From a virus, in UHGV virus genome UHGV-0311442: DNA of 64,000 nucleotides; one strand, given 5' to 3'. A model generated the notes under the pieces. The model was not told where the DNA came from. It saw nothing but the letters and a program-made list of their open reading frames with translations, and ran no database searches. The position numbers were made by a program, and so were the translations under genes. Positions within the stretch are counted from its first letter, which is position 1, and each line of letters begins with the position of its first letter. Shown here one piece after another: positions 1,944-15,728 of the stretch.

Positions 1944-4900
1944 ATGCCGAGAGAAGACGCGGCGCAGTTTAACGGTACGCTAAGCACAGCGACGTACCCT
2001 AACCGATTTAACGTGGTCATTCCGCCTGAAGGACCTTTTTATCGTATCGGATTAAAACTCACAGTAGCCGACGATACCGCGCCTAACGGACGTCGTACTC
2101 TGATTGAGGGGTTGGACTACTATTTAGGCTATTACTTTAAAGAACTCGCAGAAGCTGAGCAAGATCAGATTTACGGCGGGTTCATGTTGCTGACCGCAAC
2201 AGAAATCGAATATGAGATTTTAGGGGTAGCACGCCAGTATCGTGTACCACAATCTGAAATCGGAAAGTTCTTAGTTCGTACTGACCTGAAAGACCCACGT
2301 AACGTGGACTGGTCAGAGTTAATGGCGTATGCGCCAGTTATTCAACCCATCGATCCTCCTGCTAACTTAGAAGAAGCTATTCTGAGGGATGAGGTTGTTA
2401 AAGCGTTAAACGATATCCGTAAGAAAATCGTTCAACGTTCAACAGAGTTAGATGCAGCGTTTACCGAAGTCACTAACCTGATTTACGAGAACGGTAAAAA
2501 GGTTTTCGACGAGGAGTTATACCAACACCACCTTAATCCTAACGCACACCAGTATACGACCACTGATGTTGGTGCCCTTCCGGTTTTGGGACGTGCTGTC
2601 GACGCTACAAAAGCGTTTGGACTGACGATTGACGAATTGGCTACGCTGATGGGTTCGGCGGGTATTGAGCAATCAGACGTTGATCAGTTAATGGGTGAAG
2701 CCCTTGGTACCGTTTACGGTCGTTGGGGTAGCACAAACGGTAACGAGCTGACGTTTAAAACCGCAGGCGGACACATCATCAGTATCCGTGGTGATAAGTG
2801 GTTAATTACCTCACCGCAACCGTTGGTGATTAAAGCAGACCAGGACAACAACGAATCGGGTTTGGCGGTTGAATTTAGTGCGGGACTGAATACGCTTTGG
2901 GTGCACTCTGGGACAGAACAGGATGTATTAGCGCCGGTTTACAACTCTGTGTATTTGGTTACACCAGAAATGGTGAACATGTACCTGACGTCTGTAACGT
3001 TACTTGAAGCAAATGCCTATTTCAAACCATCAGACAGCGTAAAACCATACGGTACAGCGAAGCAGTCTAATCCGCTAACGTTGAACGCGAATATTCCCAC
3101 AGCAACCGAGTCGGTTTATGGGGTGTTTTCGATTACGAATATCGCAACCTCCGTAGCACTAGGCACTGCTATTTCCCAAAAGGCGGTGACCGAATTAAAA
3201 GACCGGTTAGACTTGTACGTTGACGATGACTACACGGTTAACGGTAAAGGGTTTGTTAAGACAGGCGATAAAATGGTGTTAACCTTAACGAAAACCGATT
3301 TCGGTATCGATAAGATGGATAACACCATGCCGATCGCTAAACCGGTAACAAAAGCGTTAGCGAATGTGCTGAAAAATAAAAGTGTGAAGGAGCACACGCA
3401 CACTACCGCCGATTTGGATAATGTCCCGATTGGTAGTGCGACTGTAGATGGTATTTTACAGTTGTGGGATGCGATTGATGCCACGAATGATAAAGCCGTC
3501 ACGTCTCGTCAAGGGTGGTTGTTCGCAAAAGAGATCAAGAAGGTTTCCGATAAACTGAATACCATCTTACCTGCGTGGACTGTCGGTGGGGCGAAGTTCG
3601 GTAACAAAAACTTCTTACCCATTCCGGCACTCGGTAATTATTCAGGTTTTACAAAGAACCAGTCCTATCAGAAAGGCGTTGTAGGATATCAACAAGGTAA
3701 AGTTTATTCGTTACGTAATGCTTCTAATGGTGTACCTGGTACAGAGGCTATTTATTACGGTTATGCTGATATCAATACGTCGAATGCATTTGAGAACCCT
3801 CAGCAAACTTCGGTGAAATACCATCCTGCTGGGATGAGTAAATATCCTGGAGTGACCTTAAAAGCTATTTTGATCGGTGGTCAGGAAGCGATTATTTGTC
3901 TGGGTTCTGACAATAACCGTTATCTGGTCTTGTTCAATGGCTCGATGGACCACAGTAAGCACACAGTGGTGTGCCGTGTTACAATGCCGAATTATCGCGA
4001 TAATAGTCCCACTGGTTCAAACGAGATTCCGTGGAATCCTCGGCCAGAATCTGACGATGTTGTTCTGGTTGACGACCACGTTTACCTTCTTCGCTCCACG
4101 GTAAATAACGCTGCTTATGCCGTGGCGGCATGGCGTTTACGTAAAGCCGATTTGTCTACTAATGTTGCGTTAGAATTTGAACGTGTAACGTTAAATGGTG
4201 AAATGGGACAATTCGGAGATAACCTCTGCCTAAGAATTGGCCAGAAGACCGAAGAGTCGCAGACTGGTCAATTCTTCACGTATTACCCACCCGAGGCACG
4301 GGCTAAATGGACAATCGGTCACAACTTTGTCCATGGTCCAGAATGTAACCATGCTTGTGCGGTGCGTGACAGTGTGATTCGTGTGAATCATGTACCCACT
4401 GTGTGGTTTGCGGCTGCCGACGGTTCGACGATTAATTTCCGTCAATGGTCAACAAGTTTCACAATCGATACGTTAACGGGTAGAGTTACGTTGGAGGGTG
4501 CCGAACGTTTCCCCATTAAGGCTGATACTACCACACTGACGTTCGCGGATGGTTCAACTGTAGAAACCAGTCGTAAGTGGGGCGGTGGTCAAGCAAACAA
4601 TCGTTGTTTTGCAACGTATGCTAAACCTAACGGCACCGGAATGATGCTTTCCTGTTGGCAGGTTAACGATGCGGACCAGATGCCGAATGTTTCTATTAAA
4701 GGAACGCAAGGCAAAGAGTTTTTCGATTATTTGCGTTACGATAACCCGAACAATACCTCAGGCGAAGGAACGTTTACTTGGGATAAAGGCCGTGGTTCTA
4801 TCTATACCATCGGTCTTTCTCATCCTGTCGGTATCGGTGGTTCGAATAAGGTTTGGCTATCCAATCCACGCAACCGTTATACGATCGAAGTAGAAGTTGA

Positions 4901-7127
4901 CCCAAGTAAACCTTATGACGTTCCTGGATATAGCGGTTATGGCCCGAACAACAACCGTCGAGAAGTTGATGCAACCCTTTACGAACAGTTAAGCTGTATG
5001 GCTGCTTGCATGACTCCAGAGGAGCGTCACGGCCAGTTAAACGGTTGGTATTTGACGAAAGCGGAAACCTTCCCATATCGAAACATCTACGGTAACTTTG
5101 CCCTGTCATCAGAACGGCTGACGTTAGAGGAAGCGGATCGCCAGAAGATGATTAGGATGATTGTCGATGGTGCACCATCTGGTCAGGCAAACGGTTACGC
5201 GAACGAGCGCATCAGCGCAGCACACCAAAGCGGTAACGCGTTGTTTGCGCTCTGGTTGCTAGGCATTAACACTGTTTGTGAGTTCGACTTATTACAAGTC
5301 TCATGCATGAAAATCTTGAGTAACGGACGTCGAGTTCTCGACATCTATTATTTCATGGTGAGTCCGACTAAAGAAAACGGTTATCTACGTTTTAACTCGG
5401 CTACTTTCAAACTCGTTGATTGGTTCTTAGACCTTGATTACGGCTTAAGTTATCAGTCTCTGAGGGAAGAAGCGGGTAATAAAACGCGACGTGTAGGCCA
5501 GCCAATTTTTGCTTCTGCCGACGGTGTAAACTTCGGTCTATGGCTACCTTATACGCTGACAATACGGAATATCGGGGACCTAAATGCTTTGGGTTACGCT
5601 GCGAAGTATACCTTCGACCCTGGGTCGGGTTGGACTCGCGTTCCCGGTAAGTCACAATTGCGTCGGATGGCCCCTGCTCATAATCCCGAAACAGGCTGCT
5701 ACATGGGTGCGGGTAATTGGGACAAGATGGCACTAATTTTCTCTAAAGCAGATCGTGTCTTCTGTTCAGGTAACGCATATACAGCCGAAGAGTTCGTTAA
5801 TGACACCAGATTCACAACTGGGGGACAGGCGGTTATTATCGCTGGTGTGGAAACTGCCGAAGGTTGGATTCTATATTTGACGGAAGAGGTCAGGTTAGAT
5901 TTCGGTAGTAATAGCTATACATTACCGACGTGGTTGGTGGATTTAAGCAATGAATTCCCAGAAAACCATGCTAACCAGACGTTCTATGTTCATGCTGCTC
6001 TTGTAGGTTCGAAAGCTCAATATCAGATCGGTCTGGAAAAGCTGCCGGATACGAGTTCGCGATTATTTGTTGGTACAGTTACAACCGATAAAAAGCGCAT
6101 AGTTGCTATTAACATCGATAAAGTGAAACGGTTAGGCAGGGTTCGTGAATTAGAAGAACACGCTGCTGTTAGAGATCAGCACGACGTTGCAGCGGCGTAC
6201 GATCGAAAAACGGGTCCACTCCAAACCTTGGTTAACCAACCGCTGAAAGCCCCCACGGCATCTGCGGGCAAGGGTGCAGGGTATGCCGATGGTCAGAGAT
6301 GGAATGCGTTGACCGGGATCACAACACGTCCCAAACTGCCGATACAGGAAACCTACGCAGGTTATAAAAGTATCGGTAGAGTAGCGTATGAGAACTGCGC
6401 TGATCAGTTCTGGCAGAAAGCGGTCGCTGCAAACGTTGCAGCGGCTACTGCGTCTGAGAACAGTCAAGCGGCAGCCGCGAACATGAAGTGGTTGGGCGCG
6501 TATACGAAACCGACTACAGGTGCGAATGCATATCTGGCGCTGAGTCTGCGTGTTAAAGTGCCTGGTAATCCCGGCACCGCTAATCGTAGACTAAAAATCA
6601 GGCTTGCGGCTCCGACAGGTATAACCCAAGTTCGTTACGGGTTAAACCAGTCTGGTGGCACGATGACTGAACAGACAGTAACGTTAACTGCTAACAGTTA
6701 TCTGGAAAAAGAACACGCCGGATTTAAGCCAGCCGAAGAAGTCCGTGTACATGCTACGTTTGTCATTCCAAAAAATGAATACGATAGCTACCGTACGAAG
6801 TTCGGTGCTGTTCAGCTGATTGACGTTGAGTCGAACACTGTCATTAAACAGACAGATATCGACACACCGTTTATCGTGTATACCGACACGGAGTTAGCAG
6901 CGCAATCTGGTTTGGTGTATAAAGCGGTTAAGGGTCAGTTCCATCAACTCCCGTCTCAACCTGTCGTCATTGTAACTGATGGACAGACAGGGACTACGCC
7001 ACCGGTGAAAACCTCGTTTGCTGACGGGACATTAACGGTCTACGTGGCAACCACGTACGATGCGGTTAACCCAGCACAAACCCGCGATATCGATAAGCTC
7101 CAGTTCAATCTTATGTTTACATCTTAA
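1944..7127 (+). CDS. Giant (1727 aa) tail fibre / virion structural protein
   Basis: Uninterrupted 5.2-kb ORF with RBS aggag 8 nt upstream of ATG; sits directly upstream of fibre genes; no catalytic motif recognised. Confidence 0.8.
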   Translation: MPREDAAQFNGTLSTATYPNRFNVVIPPEGPFYRIGLKLTVADDTAPNGRRTLIEGLDYYLGYYFKELAEAEQDQIYGGFMLLTATEIEYEILGVARQYRVPQSEIGKFLVRTDLKDPRNVDWSELMAYAPVIQPIDPPANLEEAILRDEVVKALNDIRKKIVQRSTELDAAFTEVTNLIYENGKKVFDEELYQHHLNPNAHQYTTTDVGALPVLGRAVDATKAFGLTIDELATLMGSAGIEQSDVDQLMGEALGTVYGRWGSTNGNELTFKTAGGHIISIRGDKWLITSPQPLVIKADQDNNESGLAVEFSAGLNTLWVHSGTEQDVLAPVYNSVYLVTPEMVNMYLTSVTLLEANAYFKPSDSVKPYGTAKQSNPLTLNANIPTATESVYGVFSITNIATSVALGTAISQKAVTELKDRLDLYVDDDYTVNGKGFVKTGDKMVLTLTKTDFGIDKMDNTMPIAKPVTKALANVLKNKSVKEHTHTTADLDNVPIGSATVDGILQLWDAIDATNDKAVTSRQGWLFAKEIKKVSDKLNTILPAWTVGGAKFGNKNFLPIPALGNYSGFTKNQSYQKGVVGYQQGKVYSLRNASNGVPGTEAIYYGYADINTSNAFENPQQTSVKYHPAGMSKYPGVTLKAILIGGQEAIICLGSDNNRYLVLFNGSMDHSKHTVVCRVTMPNYRDNSPTGSNEIPWNPRPESDDVVLVDDHVYLLRSTVNNAAYAVAAWRLRKADLSTNVALEFERVTLNGEMGQFGDNLCLRIGQKTEESQTGQFFTYYPPEARAKWTIGHNFVHGPECNHACAVRDSVIRVNHVPTVWFAAADGSTINFRQWSTSFTIDTLTGRVTLEGAERFPIKADTTTLTFADGSTVETSRKWGGGQANNRCFATYAKPNGTGMMLSCWQVNDADQMPNVSIKGTQGKEFFDYLRYDNPNNTSGEGTFTWDKGRGSIYTIGLSHPVGIGGSNKVWLSNPRNRYTIEVEVDPSKPYDVPGYSGYGPNNNRREVDATLYEQLSCMAACMTPEERHGQLNGWYLTKAETFPYRNIYGNFALSSERLTLEEADRQKMIRMIVDGAPSGQANGYANERISAAHQSGNALFALWLLGINTVCEFDLLQVSCMKILSNGRRVLDIYYFMVSPTKENGYLRFNSATFKLVDWFLDLDYGLSYQSLREEAGNKTRRVGQPIFASADGVNFGLWLPYTLTIRNIGDLNALGYAAKYTFDPGSGWTRVPGKSQLRRMAPAHNPETGCYMGAGNWDKMALIFSKADRVFCSGNAYTAEEFVNDTRFTTGGQAVIIAGVETAEGWILYLTEEVRLDFGSNSYTLPTWLVDLSNEFPENHANQTFYVHAALVGSKAQYQIGLEKLPDTSSRLFVGTVTTDKKRIVAINIDKVKRLGRVRELEEHAAVRDQHDVAAAYDRKTGPLQTLVNQPLKAPTASAGKGAGYADGQRWNALTGITTRPKLPIQETYAGYKSIGRVAYENCADQFWQKAVAANVAAATASENSQAAAANMKWLGAYTKPTTGANAYLALSLRVKVPGNPGTANRRLKIRLAAPTGITQVRYGLNQSGGTMTEQTVTLTANSYLEKEHAGFKPAEEVRVHATFVIPKNEYDSYRTKFGAVQLIDVESNTVIKQTDIDTPFIVYTDTELAAQSGLVYKAVKGQFHQLPSQPVVIVTDGQTGTTPPVKTSFADGTLTVYVATTYDAVNPAQTRDIDKLQFNLMFTS

Positions 7128-7167
7128 CGCCACGAGACAAGGACGTCTCGGATTAAGGAGAGTGGCC

Positions 7168-8367
7168 ATGGCCTCCATTGTATATCAGTACCCTTTAGAT
7201 TTAACGGGAACCCTAACCTCTAACGCCGTGGAGCGTCAGGTTACGTTAGGTACAGGTAAAGTTAACCGTGCGTTTGCTTTTCCTGACGGACCGTTTTATG
7301 CTGATACGTTCCGCTTGCGGGTTGCCAATCGACCCGACGCGACGTATGAACGCGGAACGGACTATGAGTTGATTTTTGCACACCCGGGTTACGAGAAATT
7401 GACGAAGAACCGGGAAGTGGTAATGGCGGTTGTTGTAACGAACACCGCGATTCCGACCGATATCACGGTATCGGCGCAAGTAGTCGGTGGTCCGCAGTCT
7501 GCAAACGTGACTGCGATAGAACAGGCGATTGCCGAGTTGAATCTCGATAATCGAACTGTTGGCTTTAAAGACTTGCGAAATGTGCCGGACACGTTTCCTT
7601 CGGCACCAACGTATAAAGACGTCGGCGATATTTACGGCTTCGAATATATCATTACAGTGCTCGCTGGCATCAAAGATGCGATAACGGCGGGTGATGCTGT
7701 ACAGCTTGAGAACATCAAAGCGATTCTCGAAAGCCTGAAAAACGATTTCCTGGACGCGCTGAACGCGCACATTAACGCCACGGGTAATGTCCACCATCTG
7801 GATATTCATCAGGTTAACGGGTTAACAGAAACGGAGATCCGTGCACTTATCCGTGACGTACAATCTGCCATCGATGCAACCATTACTGATATTAATGCGT
7901 TGAAGAAAGCAGACGAAGCGTTAGGAAAACGTATTGATGCTGTTGTCAAATCTTTGGAAGCGTGGAACGACCAACTTAACATCGTTGCCCAAAACTACCA
8001 GAAGATGGCATTGGCATTGGCGAACCTAAATTCGCTAGTGTTACAGTTACAGAAAAATATCAACGATCTGAACACCAAACTCAACCAAGCGATTCAGCGC
8101 ATTGCTGCGTTAGAACAACGGGGTAATGAGTCCGATCAGAAAATTGATAATCTGCAACAAAACCTGGATGCGCTTAAACAACAGGTTGCGAATAACACGA
8201 ACGCAATCAGTCAGGCGAATCAGAACCTACAAAACCATATTGCGGCGGATAACCCGCACACAGGTTATCTCCACAAGAAATACGGCGGTGTGGTTCAGGC
8301 TCCAGTGCACGTTAACGCTAACTTGACGTCCCGTGATGACGTTCAGGCAGAAGCGGGTACGAAATAA
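7168..8367 (+). CDS. Coiled-coil fibre protein (fibritin / tail-fibre-like)
   Basis: RBS aaggagag then ATG at 7168 (ORF-track start 7060 lies inside the upstream gene); C-terminal half is heptad-rich, Q/N/L coiled coil. Confidence 0.75.
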   Translation: MASIVYQYPLDLTGTLTSNAVERQVTLGTGKVNRAFAFPDGPFYADTFRLRVANRPDATYERGTDYELIFAHPGYEKLTKNREVVMAVVVTNTAIPTDITVSAQVVGGPQSANVTAIEQAIAELNLDNRTVGFKDLRNVPDTFPSAPTYKDVGDIYGFEYIITVLAGIKDAITAGDAVQLENIKAILESLKNDFLDALNAHINATGNVHHLDIHQVNGLTETEIRALIRDVQSAIDATITDINALKKADEALGKRIDAVVKSLEAWNDQLNIVAQNYQKMALALANLNSLVLQLQKNINDLNTKLNQAIQRIAALEQRGNESDQKIDNLQQNLDALKQQVANNTNAISQANQNLQNHIAADNPHTGYLHKKYGGVVQAPVHVNANLTSRDDVQAEAGTK

Positions 8368-8376
8368 CTTTATTAC

Positions 8377-8422
8377 AGGAGGAACTATGCTTATGGGCGT
8401 AGTCCTCCATTCTTTTTTATTT
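8377..8422 (+). terminator. Rho-independent terminator separating the fibre genes from the Cys-rich peptide genes
   Basis: Stem ggaggaactatgc / gcgtagtcctcc followed by ttcttttttatttt. Confidence 0.6.
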
Positions 8423-8434
8423 TAAGGATACGTG

Positions 8435-8830
8435 ATGGCGATCAGTGTTAAAAATGTACGTGACCGAATCACCAACGTAGAGAACCAAATGGCAACTGGC
8501 CCACGTGTTGATCCGCAAGTTGCGTCGAAAGCACATAATGCCGCCGACACTTTTTCGGGTTGGACGCCAAGTCGGTTAGACTGCGGGGGAAGCTGTAGCT
8601 GGACGTGCTCAAACGGTTGTACGCATGGCTGTACGAGTTGTTCGGGCACCTGTACGTCGGTGTGTGTAGGTAGCTGCTCCTCTGCGTGCGGTAACCAGTG
8701 TACTGGATGTAGTTCAACGTGTTCTGGTGGCTGTTCAGGTTGCAGTGGGACCTGTGGAGGTGCTTGCTCGGGCCGTTGTTCTACGGGTTGTTCTGGTGCT
8801 TGCTCCGGTGGCTGTTCTGGCCCAACCTAA
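8435..8830 (+). CDS. Cys-rich repeat peptide 1 (~131 aa, ~26 Cys in CxxxC / CxxC repeats of C-S/T/G); candidate RiPP precursor or crosslinked structural protein
   Basis: RBS aagga 6 nt upstream of ATG; N-terminal ~50 aa leader-like and Cys-free, then the motif Y/L-D-C-G-G-S-C-S-W-T-C-S begins the Cys repeat core. Confidence 0.75.
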   Translation: MAISVKNVRDRITNVENQMATGPRVDPQVASKAHNAADTFSGWTPSRLDCGGSCSWTCSNGCTHGCTSCSGTCTSVCVGSCSSACGNQCTGCSSTCSGGCSGCSGTCGGACSGRCSTGCSGACSGGCSGPT

Positions 8831-8840
8831 GAGGTGAAAA

Positions 8841-9239
8841 ATGGCAATTGGATTACCTGCGCTACAAGCGCGGCTAAATAACATTGACAACACTGCATTG
8901 AAGAATACGGGTGCAGTACAAAACTATATTCGTGGGAAAGCGACGAACAACGCAGACCTATTCGGTGGGCAAGCTCGCAACCACTATGACTGCGGGGGAA
9001 GCTGTAGCTGGACCTGTTCGAGCTGTTCTGGTGGTTGTACAGGGAACGCATCAGGCGGCTGTGGCTCTTCCTGTTCTGCAAACTGTGTATCAGGTTGTAG
9101 CGCGGGCTGTAGTGGATGTTCGAATACCTGTTCTGGTGGCTGCTCAGGAAGCTGTACGGGGAGTTGTTCTAACTCGTGTGTAGGAAACTGTTCTGCAGGC
9201 TGCTCTGGTGCTTGCTCCGGTGGCTGTTCTGGGAGGTAA
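8841..9239 (+). CDS. Cys-rich repeat peptide 2 (132 aa), paralog of peptide 1
   Basis: RBS gaggtg; shares the YDCGGSCSWTCS motif and a 29-bp identical 3' DNA segment (GCSGACSGGCSG) with peptide 1. Confidence 0.75.
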   Translation: MAIGLPALQARLNNIDNTALKNTGAVQNYIRGKATNNADLFGGQARNHYDCGGSCSWTCSSCSGGCTGNASGGCGSSCSANCVSGCSAGCSGCSNTCSGGCSGSCTGSCSNSCVGNCSAGCSGACSGGCSGR

Positions 9240-9241
9240 TT

Positions 9242-9448
9242 GTGATTAGCCTTAAGAACCTTCGTGATCGGTTAGTAACAGCGGAAGGGTATATTACGAC
9301 CGCTAACGCAAACAACTATATTGCAAACCAGGGCACCGTGTCTTCAACCAATAACCTTGCCGGTTTACCTTTAAGCCATTATAACTGTAACGGCGGATGT
9401 AGCTGGTCGTGCAGTGGTAGCTGTAGTAAAGGTGCGGGGGGAAGGTAA
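9242..9448 (+). CDS. Cys-rich peptide 3 (68 aa, GTG start), short paralog with 4 Cys
   Basis: RBS gggagg 5 nt upstream of GTG 9242; N-terminus ISLKNLRDRL parallels peptide 1 (ISVKNVRDRI); core YNCNGGCSWSCSGSCS. Confidence 0.6.
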   Translation: MISLKNLRDRLVTAEGYITTANANNYIANQGTVSSTNNLAGLPLSHYNCNGGCSWSCSGSCSKGAGGR

Positions 9449-9597
9449 CTAAGCCCTCCAGTGGTAGTATGTCTATTACGCAATAACCGAGTTAATCGTA
9501 CGGGTTTACTACTGAGTTTCAAGTTACCGGTAGGCAATGGTGCGGTGGTTTCTATACCCTGAATGTCCGTTTGACCGTGAAATAATTGGAGCAATCA

Positions 9598-10485
9598 ATG
9601 AAGAATGATTTACATTTAGCGTACAAAACAATTTTCAATCATCCACTTCACATTTCTTCCCCTGATTCCGTACGTGCACACTTAGCAGATGAAGTTCGTC
9701 TGTTGACTCAGTTGCCGGGCGAATGGCCTAAAGTGCGCGGACGTTTCTTTACCGATCGTAAAAACTATCGTGTGGAAAATACGTTTAAGATTCGTGATCT
9801 GACGGCAGAAAGTGTAGTGGTCTTTACCGGTGACTCCGAGTTGCGTGGTAAACTGGTTGCGGGTAAATATTTCTTTAGTGACGGGATTTTGAATAACTCC
9901 GTAGATATGGAATTGTTCTTTACCCCATTTGAAGAAATGGGCGCAAAACCAGTTGCCCGTCGTTGGTGGTCGCCGGATTACTTAGGCTCGTTCCCGTATT
10001 TCTTTACCCTGGTAACACCAGAAACGAAGAACTATTTCGATACGGAATCGTATATCGAAATTGAAGGGTACGAAGCGTTAGGGATTAATTGCTTAGCGGA
10101 TTTAATGGCGTATAGCTATAAGTTCGTGTGGGATCGTGAACGTTCCGTGTGGGTTGCCCTGACGGATGAACACGAAATTACAAAACGCATCCGTAAGCCT
10201 TGGATGCAGCATTTGATTCAAACGCGTATTGGCGAGCATCCGTCAACAGAAGCGGATCTGGCAAAACTCGTTAGTTTCTTAATGACGAAAGTCACGTTAA
10301 CTGACGAAGAGAAAGCAGCAGTGTCGGCGGTGTTGGACCGTAACGTAACGTTAGCGGATTTAGAACGTTTAAATGTCCGTTATAAAGACCTTAATCGTAT
10401 TTTGGAAGCGTATAACTCTCCATTCTTGTTAACCCCTGGTGCTAACGTAGACGACGATCCTTTGTTCGCCATTGATTATATTTAA
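9598..10485 (+). CDS. Hypothetical protein inside the Cys-peptide / radical-SAM cluster (possible accessory or recognition factor)
   Basis: ORF with RBS ggag 6 nt upstream of ATG 9598 (ORF-track TTG at 9586 overlaps the RBS). Confidence 0.65.
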   Translation: MKNDLHLAYKTIFNHPLHISSPDSVRAHLADEVRLLTQLPGEWPKVRGRFFTDRKNYRVENTFKIRDLTAESVVVFTGDSELRGKLVAGKYFFSDGILNNSVDMELFFTPFEEMGAKPVARRWWSPDYLGSFPYFFTLVTPETKNYFDTESYIEIEGYEALGINCLADLMAYSYKFVWDRERSVWVALTDEHEITKRIRKPWMQHLIQTRIGEHPSTEADLAKLVSFLMTKVTLTDEEKAAVSAVLDRNVTLADLERLNVRYKDLNRILEAYNSPFLLTPGANVDDDPLFAIDYI

Positions 10486-10506
10486 AAACGACCGGAGTCA
10501 CCTGCA

Positions 10507-11430
10507 ATGACAACCAATGCAGAACCAAGGTTATCGAATCGTTTATACGATAAACCCACCGTATTGTCCGTAGTCGCTACGTCCAAGTGTAACCTGGATT
10601 GTAGCTTCTGCGGTGGAGCCTATTACATGAATCGTGAAGATTCTCCGCGAGAGTTTCAACGTGAGCGAATTTTGGAAGCGCTGGAAGCTAATCCAACCAT
10701 TACCGAAATTCAGTGGACGGGTGGTGAGCCATTACTGGCAACCCGTAAAATTGAGGCGTTTGTTGACGAATTAAAAGTGATTCGTCCAGAACTCAAACAC
10801 CAGTTGTATACCAATGGCTTAAAGATGCGTAAATCGCATCTCCCGTTGCTAAAACAGTTTGACAATGTCTACGTTAGCATCGATGGGTTTAAGTCGTCTG
10901 AGCGCCCGTTTATGCGCTTTATTGACGAAGGCTGTTACGAAGCACTGGAAACGATCTACGAGCTGGATAATGTCCAGACTTGGGGTGTCCTGACACGGGA
11001 CCGTTTAGGGGACAAACGCTGGCACGAAGATATTATTCAGCTGCACAGCGCGATTTACCATTACGGTTTCCGTGCAATGACGTTACTCTTAGATGCGAAA
11101 ATGCCAAAACCTTTATCGCCTGACCACGTCATGAACTTTATTTACGGCTACTATCAGGTTCAGGACAACATTGAACGTCTGAATGTAGTAAATGGACGTG
11201 AATGTGGCTTTACGGTAAGTAAAGTGTTTGAAGAAGGGTGTAACGTTTGCAGCGAAAGTCTTTGGATTAATGCAGACGGTGGTGAGCACCAACTCCAGAA
11301 TGCACCTAACGTTCTGGAATCGGGATGTAACCAACTGGCCTTCTCTATCGGTGTAGAGGCGTACGAATATATTCGTCGCGTAGTGATGGCAGGACGTAAT
11401 AGAGGGGCGGCAAATGAGCCAAGCAAATGA
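10507..11430 (+). CDS. Radical SAM enzyme (CxxxCxxC), candidate peptide-modifying maturase
   Basis: N-terminal CNLDCSFCGG cluster; GGEPLL SAM-binding motif; YTNG and SIDG motifs; four C-terminal Cys (possible twitch-like auxiliary cluster). Confidence 0.8.
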   Translation: MTTNAEPRLSNRLYDKPTVLSVVATSKCNLDCSFCGGAYYMNREDSPREFQRERILEALEANPTITEIQWTGGEPLLATRKIEAFVDELKVIRPELKHQLYTNGLKMRKSHLPLLKQFDNVYVSIDGFKSSERPFMRFIDEGCYEALETIYELDNVQTWGVLTRDRLGDKRWHEDIIQLHSAIYHYGFRAMTLLLDAKMPKPLSPDHVMNFIYGYYQVQDNIERLNVVNGRECGFTVSKVFEEGCNVCSESLWINADGGEHQLQNAPNVLESGCNQLAFSIGVEAYEYIRRVVMAGRNRGAANEPSK

Positions 11431-12736
11431 ATTCCCTAAGCAGTTAACGTATCAGATCGTAACCAACCTTTCGTGTAACCTGGACTGCGAATATTGTTAC
11501 GAACGTAAGTACCCGCGTAACAACAAAGCGGCCGACATTGTTGATTTCTTACACGCCTGTTTTGAACGTGATAAAAACGAACCGAATGTTGAAGTTATTA
11601 TCGACATTATCGGCGGTGAACCGTTCATGCAGCCTAAGTTGCTGCTGGCAGCGTTTGAAACCGCAGAGCAGTTGTGTAAAGAACACAACCGTCCGTTTAT
11701 GTTTAGTATCTCCACGAACGGGACCTTGTTAGATCGTCCGTTGAACCGTGAGATTGTAGAACGTTGGAAAGACAAACTTTCGGTTGGGGTTTCGATTGAT
11801 GGCTTGCCTGAGTCCCATGACCGTTATCGTATCTTCACAACAACGCGCCAGGGTTCTTACGAAGCCGCAGTACGTGGCTATAATTACTTAAAAGAGGTTG
11901 GCATTGCAGAACTCGGCGTAAAAGCGACCTTTACGTTAGAAACACTGCCGTTCTATGCTGCAGGGATGAAGTCATTAATTGACATTACTGGCGGTGGGAC
12001 AATTTCTGGGAACGTAACCTTCGAAGACGTTATGCCACGTAGCATGGCGACGTCAATCGCTTTACAGATGATGGATGTGATAGATTATTGGGTTGAGAAA
12101 GGATTACACACCAACCCACGTAATATCTTATCGCACATCATTCCAGAAGGGTTGGATTTCGATACGATTTGGGAACCGAACTGGCGTGACCAGTTACTGT
12201 ATAATGACACCGTACGGTTGAACCCAGAACGTTTACGTCCGTTCTGTGGGACGTTAACGCACATGACGTGCTTAGGATTTGACCGTAAGATCTTTGGCTG
12301 TAACCGCTTTATGTCAACGGTAACGTCGCGTTCTGCGGTGTTTGAGTTGGTAGGTCGGGAATTCGTCAGTCTGGACAACGGTAAATTGTTAGAAGAGATT
12401 CAAACGCAATATACCAACTACCCAGAGACCTGTTTAGGTTGTCCGATGAAACACGCTTGTGGTAGCTGTGCGGCGGCTTCTTACGAGAACGGGGAAGGAA
12501 CGTTAGAAGACCGTAAAGCGTATCACGCTGAACGTCGTCAGTGTGGCTGGACGACAGCGAAACTGATGGTGGCGGAATACTGGAAACAGAAGATGGGTAC
12601 GACGTCAGCAAAAGCGTTCCACGACACGAGCATGTGTTATTGCCCACGCTGTGTTCGTGAACGTGCCCAAAAGGAAAAATTATTAAGAGAAGCCAAAGAT
12701 GAAACCAATTCTGATCAACAATATTACGAAGCGTAG
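11414..12736 (+). CDS. Radical SAM enzyme with SPASM-like C-terminal domain, candidate peptide maturase
   Basis: CNLDCEYCY cluster; GGEPFM; STNGTLL; SIDGLPESHDRYR (SxDGxxxxHDxxR as in PqqE/anSME/AlbA-type enzymes); C-terminal CLGCPMKHACGSC plus further Cys; start overlaps upstream rSAM gene by 17 nt. Confidence 0.85.
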   Translation: MSQANEFPKQLTYQIVTNLSCNLDCEYCYERKYPRNNKAADIVDFLHACFERDKNEPNVEVIIDIIGGEPFMQPKLLLAAFETAEQLCKEHNRPFMFSISTNGTLLDRPLNREIVERWKDKLSVGVSIDGLPESHDRYRIFTTTRQGSYEAAVRGYNYLKEVGIAELGVKATFTLETLPFYAAGMKSLIDITGGGTISGNVTFEDVMPRSMATSIALQMMDVIDYWVEKGLHTNPRNILSHIIPEGLDFDTIWEPNWRDQLLYNDTVRLNPERLRPFCGTLTHMTCLGFDRKIFGCNRFMSTVTSRSAVFELVGREFVSLDNGKLLEEIQTQYTNYPETCLGCPMKHACGSCAAASYENGEGTLEDRKAYHAERRQCGWTTAKLMVAEYWKQKMGTTSAKAFHDTSMCYCPRCVRERAQKEKLLREAKDETNSDQQYYEA

Positions 12737-13271
12737 AATTCGACTTCTGGATAAGTTTCTGGAAAACAGTAAGCTATTCGGTTGTTATGTGGTGATTAAC
12801 GGTGAAGATTTTACCGATGACGTAAAACGCTTACTGATTCGTCACGGTGTGACTGTAATCATCCCAATGTACTGCACCGAACTTACTGACCTGTCGGTCG
12901 CGGAAATTGAAAAACGTAACCCAGGGTTTGAAGAACGGGTATTGGATTTCCCACGTCACAAAATTGCGTTTCTACGCCGCTCTTTAAGCGAACCCAGCGC
13001 AGAATCTATCACTGTGTTGGCATTGTCCTTCCCCGGCATTACTATCTTCGCAACACGTAACCCGAACTCACCGATTGATGGGTTTTACGATGAGCGAGAG
13101 AAATTTAATACCGTGATTTTTCCTGAGCTAACGCCAGAAGAATGCCAGGGTATCCGTATCGATTGGGAATCGGACTTCGACACAAGATTCCGTCATATCG
13201 ATTTTGAACTGTTAATCGAATTAGGGTTGATTAAAGGAGACGATGAATGTCTGCTACTGGTGAAGGCTTAA
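12699..13271 (+). CDS. Hypothetical protein (cluster-associated)
   Basis: ORF overlapping the 3' end of the rSAM gene; same operon. Confidence 0.55.
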   Translation: MKPILINNITKRRIRLLDKFLENSKLFGCYVVINGEDFTDDVKRLLIRHGVTVIIPMYCTELTDLSVAEIEKRNPGFEERVLDFPRHKIAFLRRSLSEPSAESITVLALSFPGITIFATRNPNSPIDGFYDEREKFNTVIFPELTPEECQGIRIDWESDFDTRFRHIDFELLIELGLIKGDDECLLLVKA

Positions 13272-13918
13272 CGAAAGAAGAAATCCGTCGCCGTTATTTT
13301 GCGCACGATTTACCGATTGACCGTCATGGTAACTACATGGAGAAAATCGGTAGTGAAGATCACGGCCGTACAGGGTTTTGTGCGTTACTGCACTATAAGT
13401 TGATTGATGGGATGTCTGATCGCGAAGCATTGGAACAAATGCGTAACTACGACATGTCTGAAATCGAAGCACGGTTTACGCTACAGAAAGCGAAAGACTT
13501 TGTTAACGACACGTTGGGGATTGACCTGGAAGAAATTCGTGCAGGTTTACGTTCCACGGTGCGGTACATCTTTACCGATGTTCAGAAAATTCTAAGCGCT
13601 CTGGAATTCCGTTATCAGGATGCGCGCTATGCTGAGATTCAGGTAGGTGATTTCACTTTCCAGGCAGATGAGAAGTCACAGGTAGCACTGAGTCGTTATA
13701 TCCAGTCAGAAACTGCGCCAGCGTATTGGTTAACGGCTAACAACACCCGTATCGAACCGTTTACGTTAGAACAGTGCAAGACGTTGCTGGCAGCAATCGT
13801 TGAGCGCGATCAAAGACTACACCACGCAATGTCTGAGCAGAAAAGAGAAGTCAGAGCTTGGGCTGAAGCACGTGATTACGATTCAATTAAAGCGTTTGCG
13901 TTAGAGCAAGGGCTGTAA
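13247..13918 (+). CDS. Hypothetical protein (cluster-associated)
   Basis: RBS aaggaga 6 nt upstream of ATG; last gene before the bidirectional terminator. Confidence 0.65.
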   Translation: MSATGEGLTKEEIRRRYFAHDLPIDRHGNYMEKIGSEDHGRTGFCALLHYKLIDGMSDREALEQMRNYDMSEIEARFTLQKAKDFVNDTLGIDLEEIRAGLRSTVRYIFTDVQKILSALEFRYQDARYAEIQVGDFTFQADEKSQVALSRYIQSETAPAYWLTANNTRIEPFTLEQCKTLLAAIVERDQRLHHAMSEQKREVRAWAEARDYDSIKAFALEQGL

Positions 13919-13939
13919 TCGACAGCGAAAAAAAATAGT

Positions 13940-13981
13940 ATACCTACCTCCTATTACGGGAGGTAGGTATTTTTATTTTTT
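13940..13981. terminator. Bidirectional rho-independent terminator between convergent genes
   Basis: Perfect 12-bp stem atacctacctcc / ggaggtaggtat flanked by an A-run upstream and a T-run downstream. Confidence 0.65.
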
Positions 13982-13982
13982 C

Positions 13983-14513
13983 TTAGGACGTAAAACCGTC
14001 CAGCTCACCGTTGGTGGTGGCCAGGTCAATACGATTATCAACAACTTTCGGCGTAATTACGAAAGTTGCCATTACACCTGGTTTATAACGGAGGTTCTTT
14101 TCAGTAACGGTGCACGTTACCGTACGCAGAGTGACGTTTTCATGTTCGTCTTTCTGGTCTTCGGTGTTGTACACAACGTCGCCTGGTGCGATAGCATCGT
14201 TCGGTTTAACTTTATTGATGTAATATTGTAACCAAGCGCGCAGTTCATTTTCTTGAACCCAGCGAGACAGATCGTCAGTTAGTTCAATACGGCCTACAAC
14301 ACCCGGTTCCAGACGATCGTAATGCAGTTCGATTGCACCTTTGAAATTCTCAGAACCTGGTAGTGCAGTCATGGTAACTTTGGTATTCTTACCTTCGCCT
14401 TCCAGCGCAGTAGGGAGACCAAAGGACACTTCTTTATCAGTTACCTGATGTGGTAGCTCAGTGTTAGCAGCATTATAAAGCGCGACCAACATCATCTGGT
14501 TAGTAGCGGCCAT
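13983..14513 (-). CDS. Paralog family A protein (176 aa), probable fibre-associated virion protein
   Basis: Tandem paralog of 14579..15109; both share architecture and C-terminal GELDGFT. Confidence 0.7.
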   Translation of the reverse strand: MAATNQMMLVALYNAANTELPHQVTDKEVSFGLPTALEGEGKNTKVTMTALPGSENFKGAIELHYDRLEPGVVGRIELTDDLSRWVQENELRAWLQYYINKVKPNDAIAPGDVVYNTEDQKDEHENVTLRTVTCTVTEKNLRYKPGVMATFVITPKVVDNRIDLATTNGELDGFTS

Positions 14514-14578: not shown

Positions 14579-15109
14579 TTATTCTTTAGGAGACGGTGCG
14601 GTGAAGCCATCCAGTTCACCTTCCAAACCGCTCAGTGCTACTTTCTCAGGAGCCGGAGGAGTAACTTTATACGTCGCGACAGTACCAGGCAGGAACTTCA
14701 AGTGGCCAGCCACAACCGTTACCACGTAAATGGTTTTGCCTTCTTCTTCACGAGAAATAGTTTGCAGGTCGTTTTCACCGAACTCGTCATCGGTGTACCC
14801 TTTCTCAGCCATGGCTGCGTTAACTTTCGCCAGGATCTTCGTTGGTGAATCGAAATCGGTAGTAGGTGCAGTTACTTCAACTTCACCAACGATGTCGCAG
14901 GAAAGACGAGTATAGTGGAATTCTTTCTCGCCTTTGAAGTTCTGGCTTTCTGCCTTGGCGGTCAGAGTAATTTTAGTGTTGCGGCCAGCTTCTCCGGTGA
15001 ACTCAGCGACAGCACTAAAATTAACATCATTTACAGTCAACTTAGAAGCAGTTTGGTTGTTTTTAGCAATTACAATCTCGATAAGCTGCTGTTGAAAAGT
15101 TTTAGCCAT
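14579..15109 (-). CDS. Paralog family A protein (176 aa)
   Basis: Paralog of 13983..14513. Confidence 0.7.
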   Translation of the reverse strand: MAKTFQQQLIEIVIAKNNQTASKLTVNDVNFSAVAEFTGEAGRNTKITLTAKAESQNFKGEKEFHYTRLSCDIVGEVEVTAPTTDFDSPTKILAKVNAAMAEKGYTDDEFGENDLQTISREEEGKTIYVVTVVAGHLKFLPGTVATYKVTPPAPEKVALSGLEGELDGFTAPSPKE

Positions 15110-15248: not shown

Positions 15249-15728
15249 ATGCTAAAACGTTTTCTACTTGTTGTAACTGCAGCACTTTCGTTGGCAAGCT
15301 GTGCCCTACAACCCACCGCTAACGGTCAATTCTCGACTGTACCCGTAGAGCCACACGACATGGTTATTTACACCTGTATGGGTGTTGAGCAAGATTTTGC
15401 AAATTACAAACCTGTCGTCAGTTCGACTAACCTAATGTTAGGTTCAGTAACTGTAGTCGATACTGGTGCTAACTGGGTAGCCACTTGGCCAAACGGTAAG
15501 ATTGAATCACCACAACTTTATAAAGATCTATTAGGTAAAGTTAATGGGAATATCGATCCTATCACGGGACAACGTTACTACCGTGTAAATGGACTACTTT
15601 CAAAAACGCCAACATTTGCGTATTCTACTTTAGAATATAAAACGGGCGATGGTAAAGGCATTACTTTCTTCCACTGTAAGGAAGGTGTAGCTCCTGACAG
15701 TGGAACAATGCTCCATCCTGCGGAATAA
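15249..15728 (+). CDS. Predicted lipoprotein (159 aa), moron-like gene on the opposite strand
   Basis: Signal peptide MLKRFLLVVTAALSLASC with lipobox L-A-S-C; RBS gaagggtg; own terminator downstream; only plus-strand gene within the minus-strand block. Confidence 0.7.
   Translation: MLKRFLLVVTAALSLASCALQPTANGQFSTVPVEPHDMVIYTCMGVEQDFANYKPVVSSTNLMLGSVTVVDTGANWVATWPNGKIESPQLYKDLLGKVNGNIDPITGQRYYRVNGLLSKTPTFAYSTLEYKTGDGKGITFFHCKEGVAPDSGTMLHPAE

What the first reader, a model, noticed from the sequence alone, without database searches (positions are those of the whole stretch)
9598..10485. Unknown 295-aa protein between the peptides and the maturases
RiPP clusters usually carry a leader-recognition element, protease or transporter next to the precursors. 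This protein has no motif I could recognise but its position makes it the best candidate for a recognition or processing partner; the two genes after the rSAM pair (12699-13918) are likewise uncharacterised cluster members.
Basis: inference. Interest (0 to 1): 0.5.

Follow-up and report, generated by a model that had tools for sequence, protein, structure and literature searches.

The report
Partner protein for phage fibre-tip maturation
This 295-residue protein of unknown fold always sits between a tail-fibre-type protein with a tail of regularly spaced cysteines and the radical-SAM enzymes predicted to modify that tail, in many unrelated phages, so it is most likely a non-enzymatic helper for an undescribed chemical maturation of phage fibres.

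Summary
The ORF is real: 9598-10485, + strand, 295 aa, with a GGAG ribosome-binding site. It is the orthologue of gp165 of the giant Salmonella phage SPN3US (75% identity).

It matches no Pfam, NCBIfam or PDB entry. A confident AlphaFold model (pLDDT 88.7) has no structural neighbour. No RRE/PqqD, peptidase or known chaperone fold was found.

An exhaustive profile search found only 42 cluster representatives. Every genomic context I could read carries the family next to radical-SAM genes: the SPN3US-like jumbo phages plus 15 other phage or prophage loci. Wherever enough flanking DNA was available, the module also holds a protein ending in a Cys-every-4th-residue tail. That protein lies directly upstream of the gp165-like gene in most loci. 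In several loci it is a bona fide tail-fibre protein. The minimal conserved set is a Cys-tailed fibre protein, the gp165-like protein and one PapB/CXXX-repeat-type SPASM maturase.

SPN3US gp165 was not among 86 virion proteins. The family conserves no Cys, His or Ser.

Best reading: a non-catalytic substrate-binding adaptor or chaperone. It would stand in for the RRE domain that these maturases lack.

It is wrong in expecting a known recognition fold, and probably wrong in calling this a classical RiPP cluster.

The parts
9598..10485 (+). The finding: gp165-like protein (295 aa), PHROG 8030. New fold. Proposed adaptor or chaperone of the Cys-tail maturation module.
   Evidence: Conserved synteny.
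8435..8830 (+). Cys-repeat protein 1 (131 aa). A ~50-aa N-terminal part carries a fibre-type motif (NAADTFSG...). An 82-aa tail follows, with 21 Cys spaced 4 (sometimes 3) residues apart.
   Evidence: PHROG 6085 at 1.6e-40. Weak TIGR04114 match.
8841..9239 (+). Cys-repeat protein 2 (132 aa, 20 Cys in the tail). Junction motif NNADLFGGQARNHYD|CGGSCSWTC.
   Evidence: PHROG 6085 at 2.5e-39. TIGR04114 at 19.4 bits against a cut-off of 20.
9242..9448 (+). Short paralogue (68 aa, GTG start, GGGAGG ribosome-binding site). It keeps the N-terminal part and the junction motif (…LSHYNCNGGCSWSCSGSC) but has no long repeat tail. It is conserved directly upstream of every gp165 orthologue.
   Evidence: A similar 60-aa ORF occurs in L050.
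10507..11430 (+). Short radical-SAM protein (307 aa; gp164-like). Its CxxxCxxC motif is at the N-terminus and it has no RRE extension. It is absent from the minimal modules (L029, L034) and fused to the long rSAM in L027 and L042.
11414..12736 (+). Long radical-SAM/SPASM maturase (440 aa; gp163-like). It aligns full length to TIGR04115 (CXXX-repeat target family) and to PapB ranthipeptide maturase, but scores below both cut-offs. It overlaps the short rSAM gene by 17 nt.
   Evidence: Relatives sit in all gp165-like loci.
12699..13271 (+). gp162-like protein (190 aa, PHROG 7988). A lineage-specific module member, also found next to the long rSAM in L050 and L052.
13247..13918 (+). gp161-like protein with DUF4376 (223 aa). 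It has weak similarity to tail and tail-fibre PHROGs. It is the last gene of the + strand block.
13940..13970 (.). Strong bidirectional terminator-like hairpin (13 pairs followed by a T-run) that closes the gene block. The scan lists no + strand terminator-like site between 8368 and 13918.
7165..8367 (+). gp167-like virion protein (400 aa, coiled coil), directly upstream of the Cys-repeat genes. Homologues accompany the module in L050 and L052. It is a candidate shaft or attachment partner.

Best explanation
The protein is the conserved non-catalytic accessory subunit of a phage module that post-translationally matures the Cys-every-4th-residue C-terminal tail of tail-fibre-type proteins.

**Proposed mechanism (inferred).** It binds the substrate and hands the tail to the radical-SAM/SPASM maturase(s). 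It may also keep the low-complexity Cys tail soluble and reduced.
- The likeliest binding site is the conserved junction just before and at the start of the Cys tail: N-x-x-L-x-G-x5-Y-Y-x-C-x-G-x-C-S-W-x-C.
- The maturases start directly with their catalytic core and lack an N-terminal recognition domain of their own.
- The long PapB/CXXX-type enzyme then installs repeated cross-links along the tail, most plausibly thioethers.
- The helper is released and does not enter the virion.

**Shown versus inferred.** Shown: gene linkage, absence from the SPN3US virion, lack of conserved catalytic residues, a fold with no known neighbour, and the absence of an RRE-sized N-terminal domain in the maturases. 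Inferred: physical binding, what it binds, and the chemistry.
For: **1. Strict linkage.**
- A profile search of 1.84e9 representatives found only 42 clusters.
- Every context read has rSAM genes adjacent. These are the SPN3US, Erwinia and Cronobacter jumbo phages and L008/9/10, L011, L027-L030, L032-L034, L042 and L049-L054.
- A Cys-repeat-tailed ORF is present wherever enough flanking DNA is available, directly upstream of the gp165-like gene in most loci.
- These contexts include siphovirus-like tails with GpJ, a Synergistaceae MAG and single-rSAM prophages.
- tblastn hit counts by host genus in isolate phages are nearly identical for gp165 and for the long rSAM.

**2. It is more 'core' than the short rSAM.** L029 and L034 hold only the Cys-tailed fibre, the gp165-like protein and one long rSAM.

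**3. Full-length homology between close and distant groups.** hhalign gives probability 99.8%, E 8.6e-30.

**4. No catalytic signature.** Family-wide conservation is mostly hydrophobic core positions plus G212 and the polar residues D168, K200, D220, K223, K231, E238 and R261. No Cys, His or Ser is conserved.

**5. The maturases lack an N-terminal domain.** The long rSAM aligns from its residue ~10-20 to position ~85-120 of SCIFF, CcpM, CefB, HxsB and RumMC-type maturase models. It therefore lacks their N-terminal ~80-100 residues. By established knowledge, that region is the RRE in such enzymes.

**6. Not a virion protein.** SPN3US gp165 (correctly annotated) is absent from the 86-protein virion proteome, while neighbours gp167-173 are present.

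**7. Tight packing.** There is a 21-nt gap to the first rSAM gene, the downstream genes overlap, and one terminator closes the block.
Against: - No RRE-like or any other known binding fold was detected, so the role rests on guilt by association.
- Nothing shows physical contact with the substrate or the enzymes.
- Absence from the virion is a negative result from aerobic laboratory lysates of one phage.
- A related gut-phage module (L045) has a near-TIGR04115 maturase but uses two unrelated small proteins instead. The gp165-like protein is therefore not universally required for this chemistry.
- Conserved Asp, Glu, Lys and Arg residues could still form an unrecognised active site.
Confidence: 0.55

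Rival explanations
1. It is a dedicated tail-fibre assembly chaperone, in the manner of lambda Tfa or T4 gp38/gp57A. It would fold or trimerise the Cys-tailed fibre proteins and would not work through the radical-SAM enzymes.
For: - In most loci it is encoded immediately downstream of the fibre-type gene, the classical position of fibre assembly proteins.
- The upstream proteins match tail-fibre PHROGs.
- It is absent from the virion.
- It shows no catalytic signature.
Against: - It is never found with a fibre gene lacking the Cys tail and the rSAM genes (and all contexts read).
- It has no similarity to any Tfa, gp38, gp57 or DUF4376 family.
- The window already encodes a DUF4376 protein.
- In L050 and L052 it is separated from the Cys genes but still abuts an rSAM gene.
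Confidence: 0.2
2. It is a tailoring enzyme of a new kind. Examples would be a protease that trims the N-terminal part from the Cys tail, or a further cross-linking or cyclising activity.
For: - RiPP-type clusters normally need a protease, and none is recognisable here.
- The fold has no known neighbour.
- Several charged residues are conserved family-wide.
Against: - No Ser, Cys or His nucleophile or metal-binding residue is conserved.
- No hydrolase-like structural neighbour was found.
- Where the tail is fused to a 250-480 aa fibre protein, cleavage would detach it from the fibre.
Confidence: 0.1
3. It is a low-copy structural or adhesin partner that caps the Cys-rich fibre tip in the virion, like gp38 of T2-type phages.
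For: - Its position after the fibre gene fits.
- The N-terminal half is variable and the C-terminal half conserved, which could reflect host adaptation.
- The true Cys-repeat proteins were missing from the SPN3US annotation, so their virion status is unknown.
Against: SPN3US gp165 is 34 kDa with 35 Lys and Arg residues and is correctly annotated. It was not detected among 86 virion proteins, although proteins with as few as 4 spectra were listed.
Confidence: 0.07
4. It is an unrelated hitch-hiking gene whose linkage to the module is historical only.
For: No direct functional data exist.
Against: Linkage survives between phages that share almost nothing else. It also survives gene-order rearrangements and reduction to three-gene modules.
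Confidence: 0.03

Closest known systems
RiPP recognition elements (RRE; PqqD-like domain, PF05402), free-standing or fused to radical-SAM/SPASM maturases
   Same: The proposed role is the same: a non-catalytic protein encoded beside the substrate and the rSAM maturase that presents the substrate. The maturases here lack the N-terminal RRE-sized domain.
   Different: - No sequence or structural similarity.
- Three times larger, at 295 aa against ~85-90 aa.
- A mixed beta-sheet plus helical-bundle fold with no known neighbour.
CXXX-repeat peptide / radical-SAM maturase system (NCBIfam TIGR04114 + TIGR04115) and the PapB ranthipeptide (freyrasin) maturase family (NF047865)
   Same: - The substrate has Cys every fourth residue.
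- The long rSAM aligns over its full length to TIGR04115 and PapB.
- PapB-type enzymes make repeated thioether rings in repeat substrates (established knowledge).
   Different: - Scores are far below the family cut-offs: 115-183 bits against 350 and 340.
- The substrate tail sits on phage tail-fibre-type proteins.
- One or two extra rSAM genes are often present.
- The gp165-like protein has no counterpart model in NCBIfam.
- The nearest true TIGR04115-like phage module (L045) uses other accessory proteins.
His-Xaa-Ser system (HxsA-D): a repeat peptide, a pair of rSAM maturases (HxsB/HxsC) and an uncharacterised accessory protein
   Same: The architecture is alike: repeat-containing substrate, paired long and short rSAM enzymes, and one protein of unknown role. 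The two rSAMs give weak hits to HxsB (3.7e-21) and HxsC (5e-10).
   Different: - A different repeat (Cys rather than His-x-Ser).
- No similarity of the target to any Hxs model.
- A phage tail context.
Phage tail-fibre assembly proteins (lambda Tfa, T4 gp38/gp57A)
   Same: - Encoded right after the fibre-type gene.
- Not, or not necessarily, part of the virion.
- Lineage-specific.
   Different: - No homology.
- Always coupled to radical-SAM genes.
SPN3US gp165 (SPN3US_0165 / YP_009153459) and PHROG 8030
   Same: Direct orthologue: 75% identity with the same neighbours. The PHROG 8030 match is at E 1.3e-141.
   Different: None in kind. These entries are annotated only as hypothetical protein or unknown function.

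Membership tests
PHROG 8030 (SPN3US gp165-like, unknown function) | Full-length match to the family HMM | tested here: met
   E 1.3e-141, residues 1-293 against profile positions 1-293 of 295. Distant members L028, L029 and L008 also hit it.
RRE / PqqD-like recognition element | PqqD-like sequence signature (PF05402 or related) | tested here: not met
   No Pfam hit at E <= 0.1 for the target. No consistent hit at E <= 1 for 21 distant members.
RRE / PqqD-like recognition element | Winged-helix fold (three-stranded sheet plus three helices, ~85 aa) detectable by structure comparison | tested here: not met
RRE / PqqD-like recognition element | Binds the leader or recognition sequence of the substrate | not testable with these tools
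   Needs binding assays or multimer structure prediction.
CXXX-repeat target rSAM system (TIGR04114/TIGR04115), for the module | Maturase scores above the TIGR04115 cut-off (350 bits) | tested here: not met
   Window long rSAM scores 114.7 bits with a full-length alignment. Relatives score 163-183 bits. L045 scores 300.6 bits.
CXXX-repeat target rSAM system (TIGR04114/TIGR04115), for the module | Substrate carries the CXXX repeat (TIGR04114 cut-off 20 bits) | tested here: inconclusive
   19.4 and 14.4 bits for the two long window proteins. Direct counting shows 20-21 Cys at a spacing of 4, occasionally 3.
PapB family ranthipeptide maturase (NF047865), for the long rSAM | Score above 340 bits | tested here: not met
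   116.8 bits.
Peptidase / leader protease | Conserved nucleophile or metal ligands and a hydrolase-like fold | tested here: not met
   No conserved Ser, Cys or His. No hydrolase neighbour. No Pfam or NCBIfam peptidase hit.
Tail-fibre assembly proteins (Tfa, gp38, gp57A) | Homology to a known assembly-protein family | tested here: not met
   No Pfam or PHROG hit other than PHROG 8030. In BFVD only its own orthologue matched.
Tail-fibre assembly proteins (Tfa, gp38, gp57A) | Encoded directly downstream of the fibre gene it serves | tested here: met
   It lies immediately downstream of the Cys-tailed fibre-type ORF in L008, L011, L027-L030, L034, L042, L053, L054 and the window.
Virion structural protein | Detected in purified particles | tested here: not met
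   SPN3US gp165 is absent from the list of 86 virion proteins. gp167-173 are present (PMC5694885 Supplementary Table 1).

The most novel reading that the evidence does not exclude
Phages of several unrelated lineages build a radical-SAM cross-linked 'cysteine ladder' at the tip of a tail fibre. This would be RiPP-type radical chemistry applied to a virion structural protein. The gp165-like family would then be a new-fold substrate-recognition subunit that replaces the RRE. Because the enzymes are oxygen-sensitive, such fibres might mature only in anaerobic hosts, for example in the gut. That would explain why no product of this block downstream of gp167 has been seen in aerobically grown SPN3US virions.
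Probability: 0.35. Interest if true: 0.85.

Novelty: new variant of a known kind. Interest (0 to 1): 0.62.

Why it matters
Radical-SAM/SPASM maturases with Cys-rich repeat substrates are known from bacterial peptide natural-product clusters. Here the same logic is wired into phage tail-fibre loci, and the Cys repeat is the C-terminal tail of fibre proteins.

If the reading is right:
- The target defines a new family, with a new fold, of substrate-handling partners for RRE-less maturases.
- The module points to covalently cross-linked fibre tips as an unrecognised way to build or stabilise host-recognition organelles.

It is directly testable in SPN3US, which already has amber-mutant genetics and virion proteomics. 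It also gives a concrete function to a block of 'hypothetical' genes conserved in about 70 sequenced jumbo phages that are under study for biocontrol of Salmonella, Erwinia and Cronobacter.

Tried and rejected
**Searches that found nothing for the target.**
- Pfam, NCBIfam and PDB sequence searches, with the single sequence and with a profile.
- RRE, peptidase, Tfa and kinase-like readings are rejected on these results.
- The afdb50 library was unavailable.

**Loci searches that failed or needed a workaround.**
- The search for related loci with distant alignments failed for lack of a conserved stretch.
- I replaced it with a hand-made degenerate DNA pattern for the A-D-Y...F-L-L-S-K helix. 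That pattern also gave 8 chance matches and one 49-aa fragment among the 11 genome hits.
- A word-indexed search with the distant alignment returned only 2 proteins.

**Comparison with the L045 module.** I tested whether the 202-aa accessory protein of the near-TIGR04115 gut-phage module L045 is a hidden homologue. It is not: hhalign probability is 0.3%.

**Literature.** Nine full-text searches found no description of these genes or of rSAM-modified fibres. Terms included SPN3US with radical SAM, phage with cysteine-rich and tail fibre, thioether, SPASM, CXXX repeat, TIGR04115 and gp165. The Haft & Basu 2011 paper could not be read.

**Other checks.**
- The sigma-70 promoter scan was no better than shuffles, and these phages use their own RNA polymerases.
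- There are no tRNA or Rfam hits in the window.
- Multimer prediction of gp165 with substrate or enzyme could not be run with the tools.

Full report
**1. What is there**

The window is part of a giant phage related to Salmonella phage SPN3US (genus Seoulvirus). The region 8400-14000 is about 72% identical in DNA to SPN3US and its relatives. An IMG/VR contig of 225 kb carries a 100% identical copy of the target protein (L012).

The finding's ORF is real.
- The mechanical ORF starts at a TTG at 9586.
- The ATG at 9598 has a GGAG 7 nt upstream.
- All orthologues begin MKN(D/E) there.
- The product is 295 aa, 34.2 kDa, pI 5.4, with a single Cys.
- It is the orthologue of SPN3US gp165 (SPN3US_0165; 75% identity).

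The local gene order is conserved in Seoulvirus, Wellingtonvirus, Derbicusvirus and Cronobacter phage CR5:

| Order | Gene | Window coordinates |
|---|---|---|
| 1 | gp168-like giant baseplate or fibre protein | 1944-7127 |
| 2 | gp167-like virion protein | 7165-8367 |
| 3 | Cys-repeat ORF 1 | 8435-8830 |
| 4 | Cys-repeat ORF 2 | 8841-9239 |
| 5 | Short Cys-repeat paralogue | 9242-9448 |
| 6 | The target (gp165-like) | 9598-10485 |
| 7 | Short rSAM | 10507-11430 |
| 8 | Long rSAM/SPASM | 11414-12736 |
| 9 | gp162-like | 12699-13271 |
| 10 | gp161-like (DUF4376) | 13247-13918 |

A strong bidirectional hairpin terminator follows at 13940-13970. The scan lists no + strand terminator-like site inside the block. 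The last four genes overlap one another.

**2. What the protein looks like**

Sequence searches give no annotation.
- No Pfam or NCBIfam family matches.
- PHROGs gives only family 8030, 'unknown function', at E 1.3e-141.
- No PDB sequence matches with the single sequence or the family profile.

AlphaFold2 with a 41-sequence alignment gives a confident single-body model (mean pLDDT 88.7, pTM 0.85).
- The N-terminal two-thirds are dominated by beta strands with short helices.
- The C-terminal third (191-272) forms a helical bundle.

The model has no meaningful structural neighbour.
- Foldseek against the PDB gave no hit at E <= 0.001.
- In BFVD only its own Erwinia-phage orthologue matched.

In a 44-sequence family alignment, conserved positions are mostly hydrophobic core residues along the whole chain. 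The others are G212 and the polar residues D168, K200, D220, K223, K231, E238 and R261. No Cys, His or Ser is conserved. This argues against a hydrolase or a metal or Fe-S protein, and for a binding or scaffolding role (inference).

**3. Where the family occurs**

This is the decisive evidence. The word-indexed search found 48 proteins, all from SPN3US-like jumbo phages or metagenomic relatives.

A filter-only HMMER search of 1.84 billion cluster representatives with the family profile found just 42 clusters. About half are 230-290-aa proteins that match mainly the C-terminal half. hhalign shows that these distant proteins are homologous over the full length (probability 99.8%, E 8.6e-30, 234 columns).

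I then read every genomic context I could reach:

| Locus | Context | Module content |
|---|---|---|
| L008/L009/L010 | 167-kb contig with siphovirus-type tail genes (DUF2460, Phage_tail_L, NlpC/P60, GpJ) | 258-aa fibre-repeat protein ending in a 13-Cys tail, then gp165-like, then three rSAM genes |
| L011 | Short contig | 221-aa protein with a Cys tail, then gp165-like, then rSAM |
| L027 | 284-kb contig | 451-aa tail-fibre protein with a Cys tail, then gp165-like, then a 686-aa fused short+long rSAM |
| L028, L030/L032 | GpJ confirmed upstream in L028; L030/L032 share its layout | ~250-aa Cys-tailed protein, then gp165-like, then two rSAM |
| L029, L034 | Prophage-type contig and a gut Synergistaceae MAG | Cys-tailed fibre protein, then gp165-like, then one long rSAM only |
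| L042, L053, L054 | Bacterial genome or metagenome contigs | Cys-tailed ORF, then gp165-like, then rSAM (two genes in L053 and L054, one fused 672-aa gene in L042) |
| L033, L049 | Truncated contigs | rSAM adjacent |
| L050-L052 | Nearer relatives of SPN3US | All parts present, including gp162-, gp161- or gp167-like genes; the order is shuffled in L050 and an extra short rSAM precedes the gp165-like gene in L052 |

No gp165-like gene was found without an adjacent rSAM gene. None was found without a Cys-tailed ORF in the module where the flanking DNA was available.

In the isolate-phage collection, tblastn hit counts by host genus are nearly the same for gp165 and for the long rSAM:

| Host genus | gp165 | Long rSAM |
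|---|---|---|
| Erwinia | 34 | 34 |
| Salmonella | 30 | 27 |
| Escherichia | 2 | 2 |
| Cronobacter | 2 | 2 |
| Enterobacteria | 1 | 1 |
| Proteus | 1 | 1 |

 The minimal conserved set is therefore a Cys-tailed protein, the gp165-like protein and one long rSAM. The target is more 'core' than the second rSAM.

**4. What the neighbours are**

*The long rSAM.* It aligns end to end with NCBIfam TIGR04115 ('radical SAM peptide maturase, CXXX-repeat target family'; 6.5e-33) and with the PapB ranthipeptide maturase family (1.2e-33). Both scores are well below the family cut-offs. Its relatives in the distant loci behave the same way.

Against maturase families that carry an N-terminal recognition domain (SCIFF, CcpM, CefB, HxsB, RumMC and others), its residue ~10-20 aligns to model position ~85-120. 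It therefore lacks that domain. By established knowledge, that domain is the RRE in many SPASM maturases.

*The Cys-rich ORFs.* They have about 50 N-terminal residues with a fibre-type motif. A strictly C-terminal tail follows, of 33-87 residues made almost only of Cys, Gly, Ser and Thr, with Cys every fourth (sometimes third) residue.

In L027, L029 and L034 the carrier proteins match 'tail fiber protein' PHROGs at E 1e-24 to 1e-40. Their tails match PHROG 6085, the family of the window's Cys proteins, in L027, L008, L028, L011 and L042.

The junction N-x-x-L-x-G-x5-Y-Y-x-C-x-G-x-C-S-W-x-C recurs in the window, L008, L028, L030, L042 and L050.

The window's 'peptides' are therefore homologues of tail-fibre tips, and no protease or exporter accompanies them. 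This looks like a fibre-maturation module rather than a secreted natural-product cluster.

**5. Virion data**

In the published SPN3US virion proteome (86 proteins; PMC5694885, Supplementary Table 1), gp167-gp173 are present but gp161-gp165 are not. For gp165 this is informative, because it is correctly annotated, 34 kDa and rich in Lys and Arg.

For the Cys proteins it is not informative. The annotated SPN3US gp166 is an out-of-frame shadow ORF. The three real Cys-repeat ORFs (L001 7950-8342, 8353-8757, 8773-8979) are not annotated. A search against the annotated proteome could not have found them.

**6. Most likely mechanism**

The target is a non-catalytic adaptor or chaperone. It recognises the Cys-tailed substrate, most plausibly at the conserved junction. 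It presents the tail to RRE-less SPASM maturases, which then install repeated cross-links. Thioethers are the likeliest, by analogy with PapB-type enzymes. The helper then leaves and is not in the virion.

- Shown: linkage, absence from the virion, no catalytic signature, RRE-less enzymes, a fold with no known neighbour.
- Inferred: binding, the binding site, the chemistry.

I put this at 0.55.

Rivals:
- A fibre-assembly chaperone acting independently of the rSAMs (0.2). Its position after the fibre gene fits, but it never occurs without rSAMs.
- A new tailoring enzyme or protease (0.1). No conserved nucleophile.
- A virion tip partner or adhesin (0.07). Not in the virion proteome.
- A hitch-hiker (0.03).

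One caution: a related gut-phage module with a near-TIGR04115 maturase (L045, 300.6 bits) has two unrelated small proteins in place of gp165-like. The accessory function is therefore not tied to a single family.

**7. Comparison with the known, and novelty**

In function it resembles an RRE. In architecture the module resembles the CXXX-repeat/TIGR04115, PapB and HxsA-D systems. In gene position the target resembles fibre-assembly proteins. It fails the membership tests for all of these and belongs only to the unannotated PHROG 8030.

Nine full-text literature searches found no description of these genes or of radical-SAM-modified phage fibres. Subscription literature is largely not covered.

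I rate it a new variant of a known kind. The kind is an rSAM/SPASM repeat-substrate maturation system. The new elements are a new accessory family and a new substrate class, phage tail fibres.

**8. Verdict**

The protein is a genuine and obligatory partner of the Cys/rSAM genes. It has no known recognition or processing fold. The cluster is better read as tail-fibre tip maturation than as a classical RiPP.
- Interest is 0.62.

Noticed in passing
L001 (SPN3US NC_027402, reverse strand) 7950-8342, 8353-8757, 8773-8979; annotated gp166 = L001 8426-8761: The annotated SPN3US gp166 is an out-of-frame shadow ORF (MCKTTFAIKLRITL...). The three real Cys-repeat ORFs are not annotated. Published virion proteomics searched against the annotation could not have detected them.
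   Followed up: yes
window 9242-9448 (+); L001 8773-8979; L002 8768-8974; L004 7780-7989; L005 7779-7988; L006 7781-7990; L050 5808-5990: A 60-72-aa paralogue of the Cys-repeat proteins lies directly upstream of every gp165 orthologue examined. It keeps the N-terminal part and the junction motif (…YxCxGxCSW…) but has only 2-5 Cys and no repeat tail. It is better conserved than the long paralogues. Its role is unexplained. It could be a minimal substrate, a cap, or a recognition sequence supplied in trans.
   Followed up: partly
L007 (Salmonella phage SPFM14, LR535912.1 88419-106706), and by similar hits SPFM5, 7, 8, 12, 15, 20: These GenBank records consist of ~60-nt blocks 100% identical to SPN3US but in reversed block order (224 such HSPs). 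This looks like a line-order file artefact. It creates spurious 'divergent' proteins such as P0044-P0048.
   Followed up: partly
L045 (MT835573.1, human-gut phage) 4448-7251: A second kind of phage module follows a tail-fibre-like gene. It has a 193-aa CXXX-repeat protein (passes TIGR04114), two unrelated small proteins (202 and 94 aa), and an rSAM scoring 300.6 bits to TIGR04115. There is no gp165-like gene.
   Followed up: partly
L027 7423-9483; L042 3655-5673; L008 10840-13668; L052 5030-8984: The number and fusion state of the rSAM genes vary: one, two, three, or a short+long fusion of 672-686 aa. The gp165-like gene stays single and unfused.
   Followed up: partly
window 8469-8717 (-), 8719-8877 (+), 8727-8837 (+), 8911-9183 (+), 9176-9448 (+, 5' part): The Cys-repeat DNA produces long shadow ORFs in other frames and on the other strand, because of its periodic composition. 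Such ORFs are easily mis-annotated, as happened in SPN3US and in Erwinia phage pEa_SNUABM_29 (minus-strand CDS 8050-8262 and 8497-8769 of L002).
   Followed up: partly
window 15249-15728 (+): A 159-aa ORF starts MLKRFLLVVTAALSLASC, which looks like a lipoprotein signal peptide with a lipobox. Its function was not examined.
   Followed up: no
window 13983-14513 (-) and 14579-15109 (-): Two tandem 176-aa paralogues of the SPN3US gp160 head-protein family (PHROG 4862). SPN3US has one copy here and Erwinia phage pEa_SNUABM_29 has three. The copy number varies just beyond the module's terminator.
   Followed up: no
window ~8377-8418: By eye there is a hairpin (AGGAGGA…TCCTCC) followed by a T-run just after gp167 and before the first Cys-repeat gene. 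Its loop is too long for the terminator scan. It could be a partial terminator that sets the expression level of the module.
   Followed up: no
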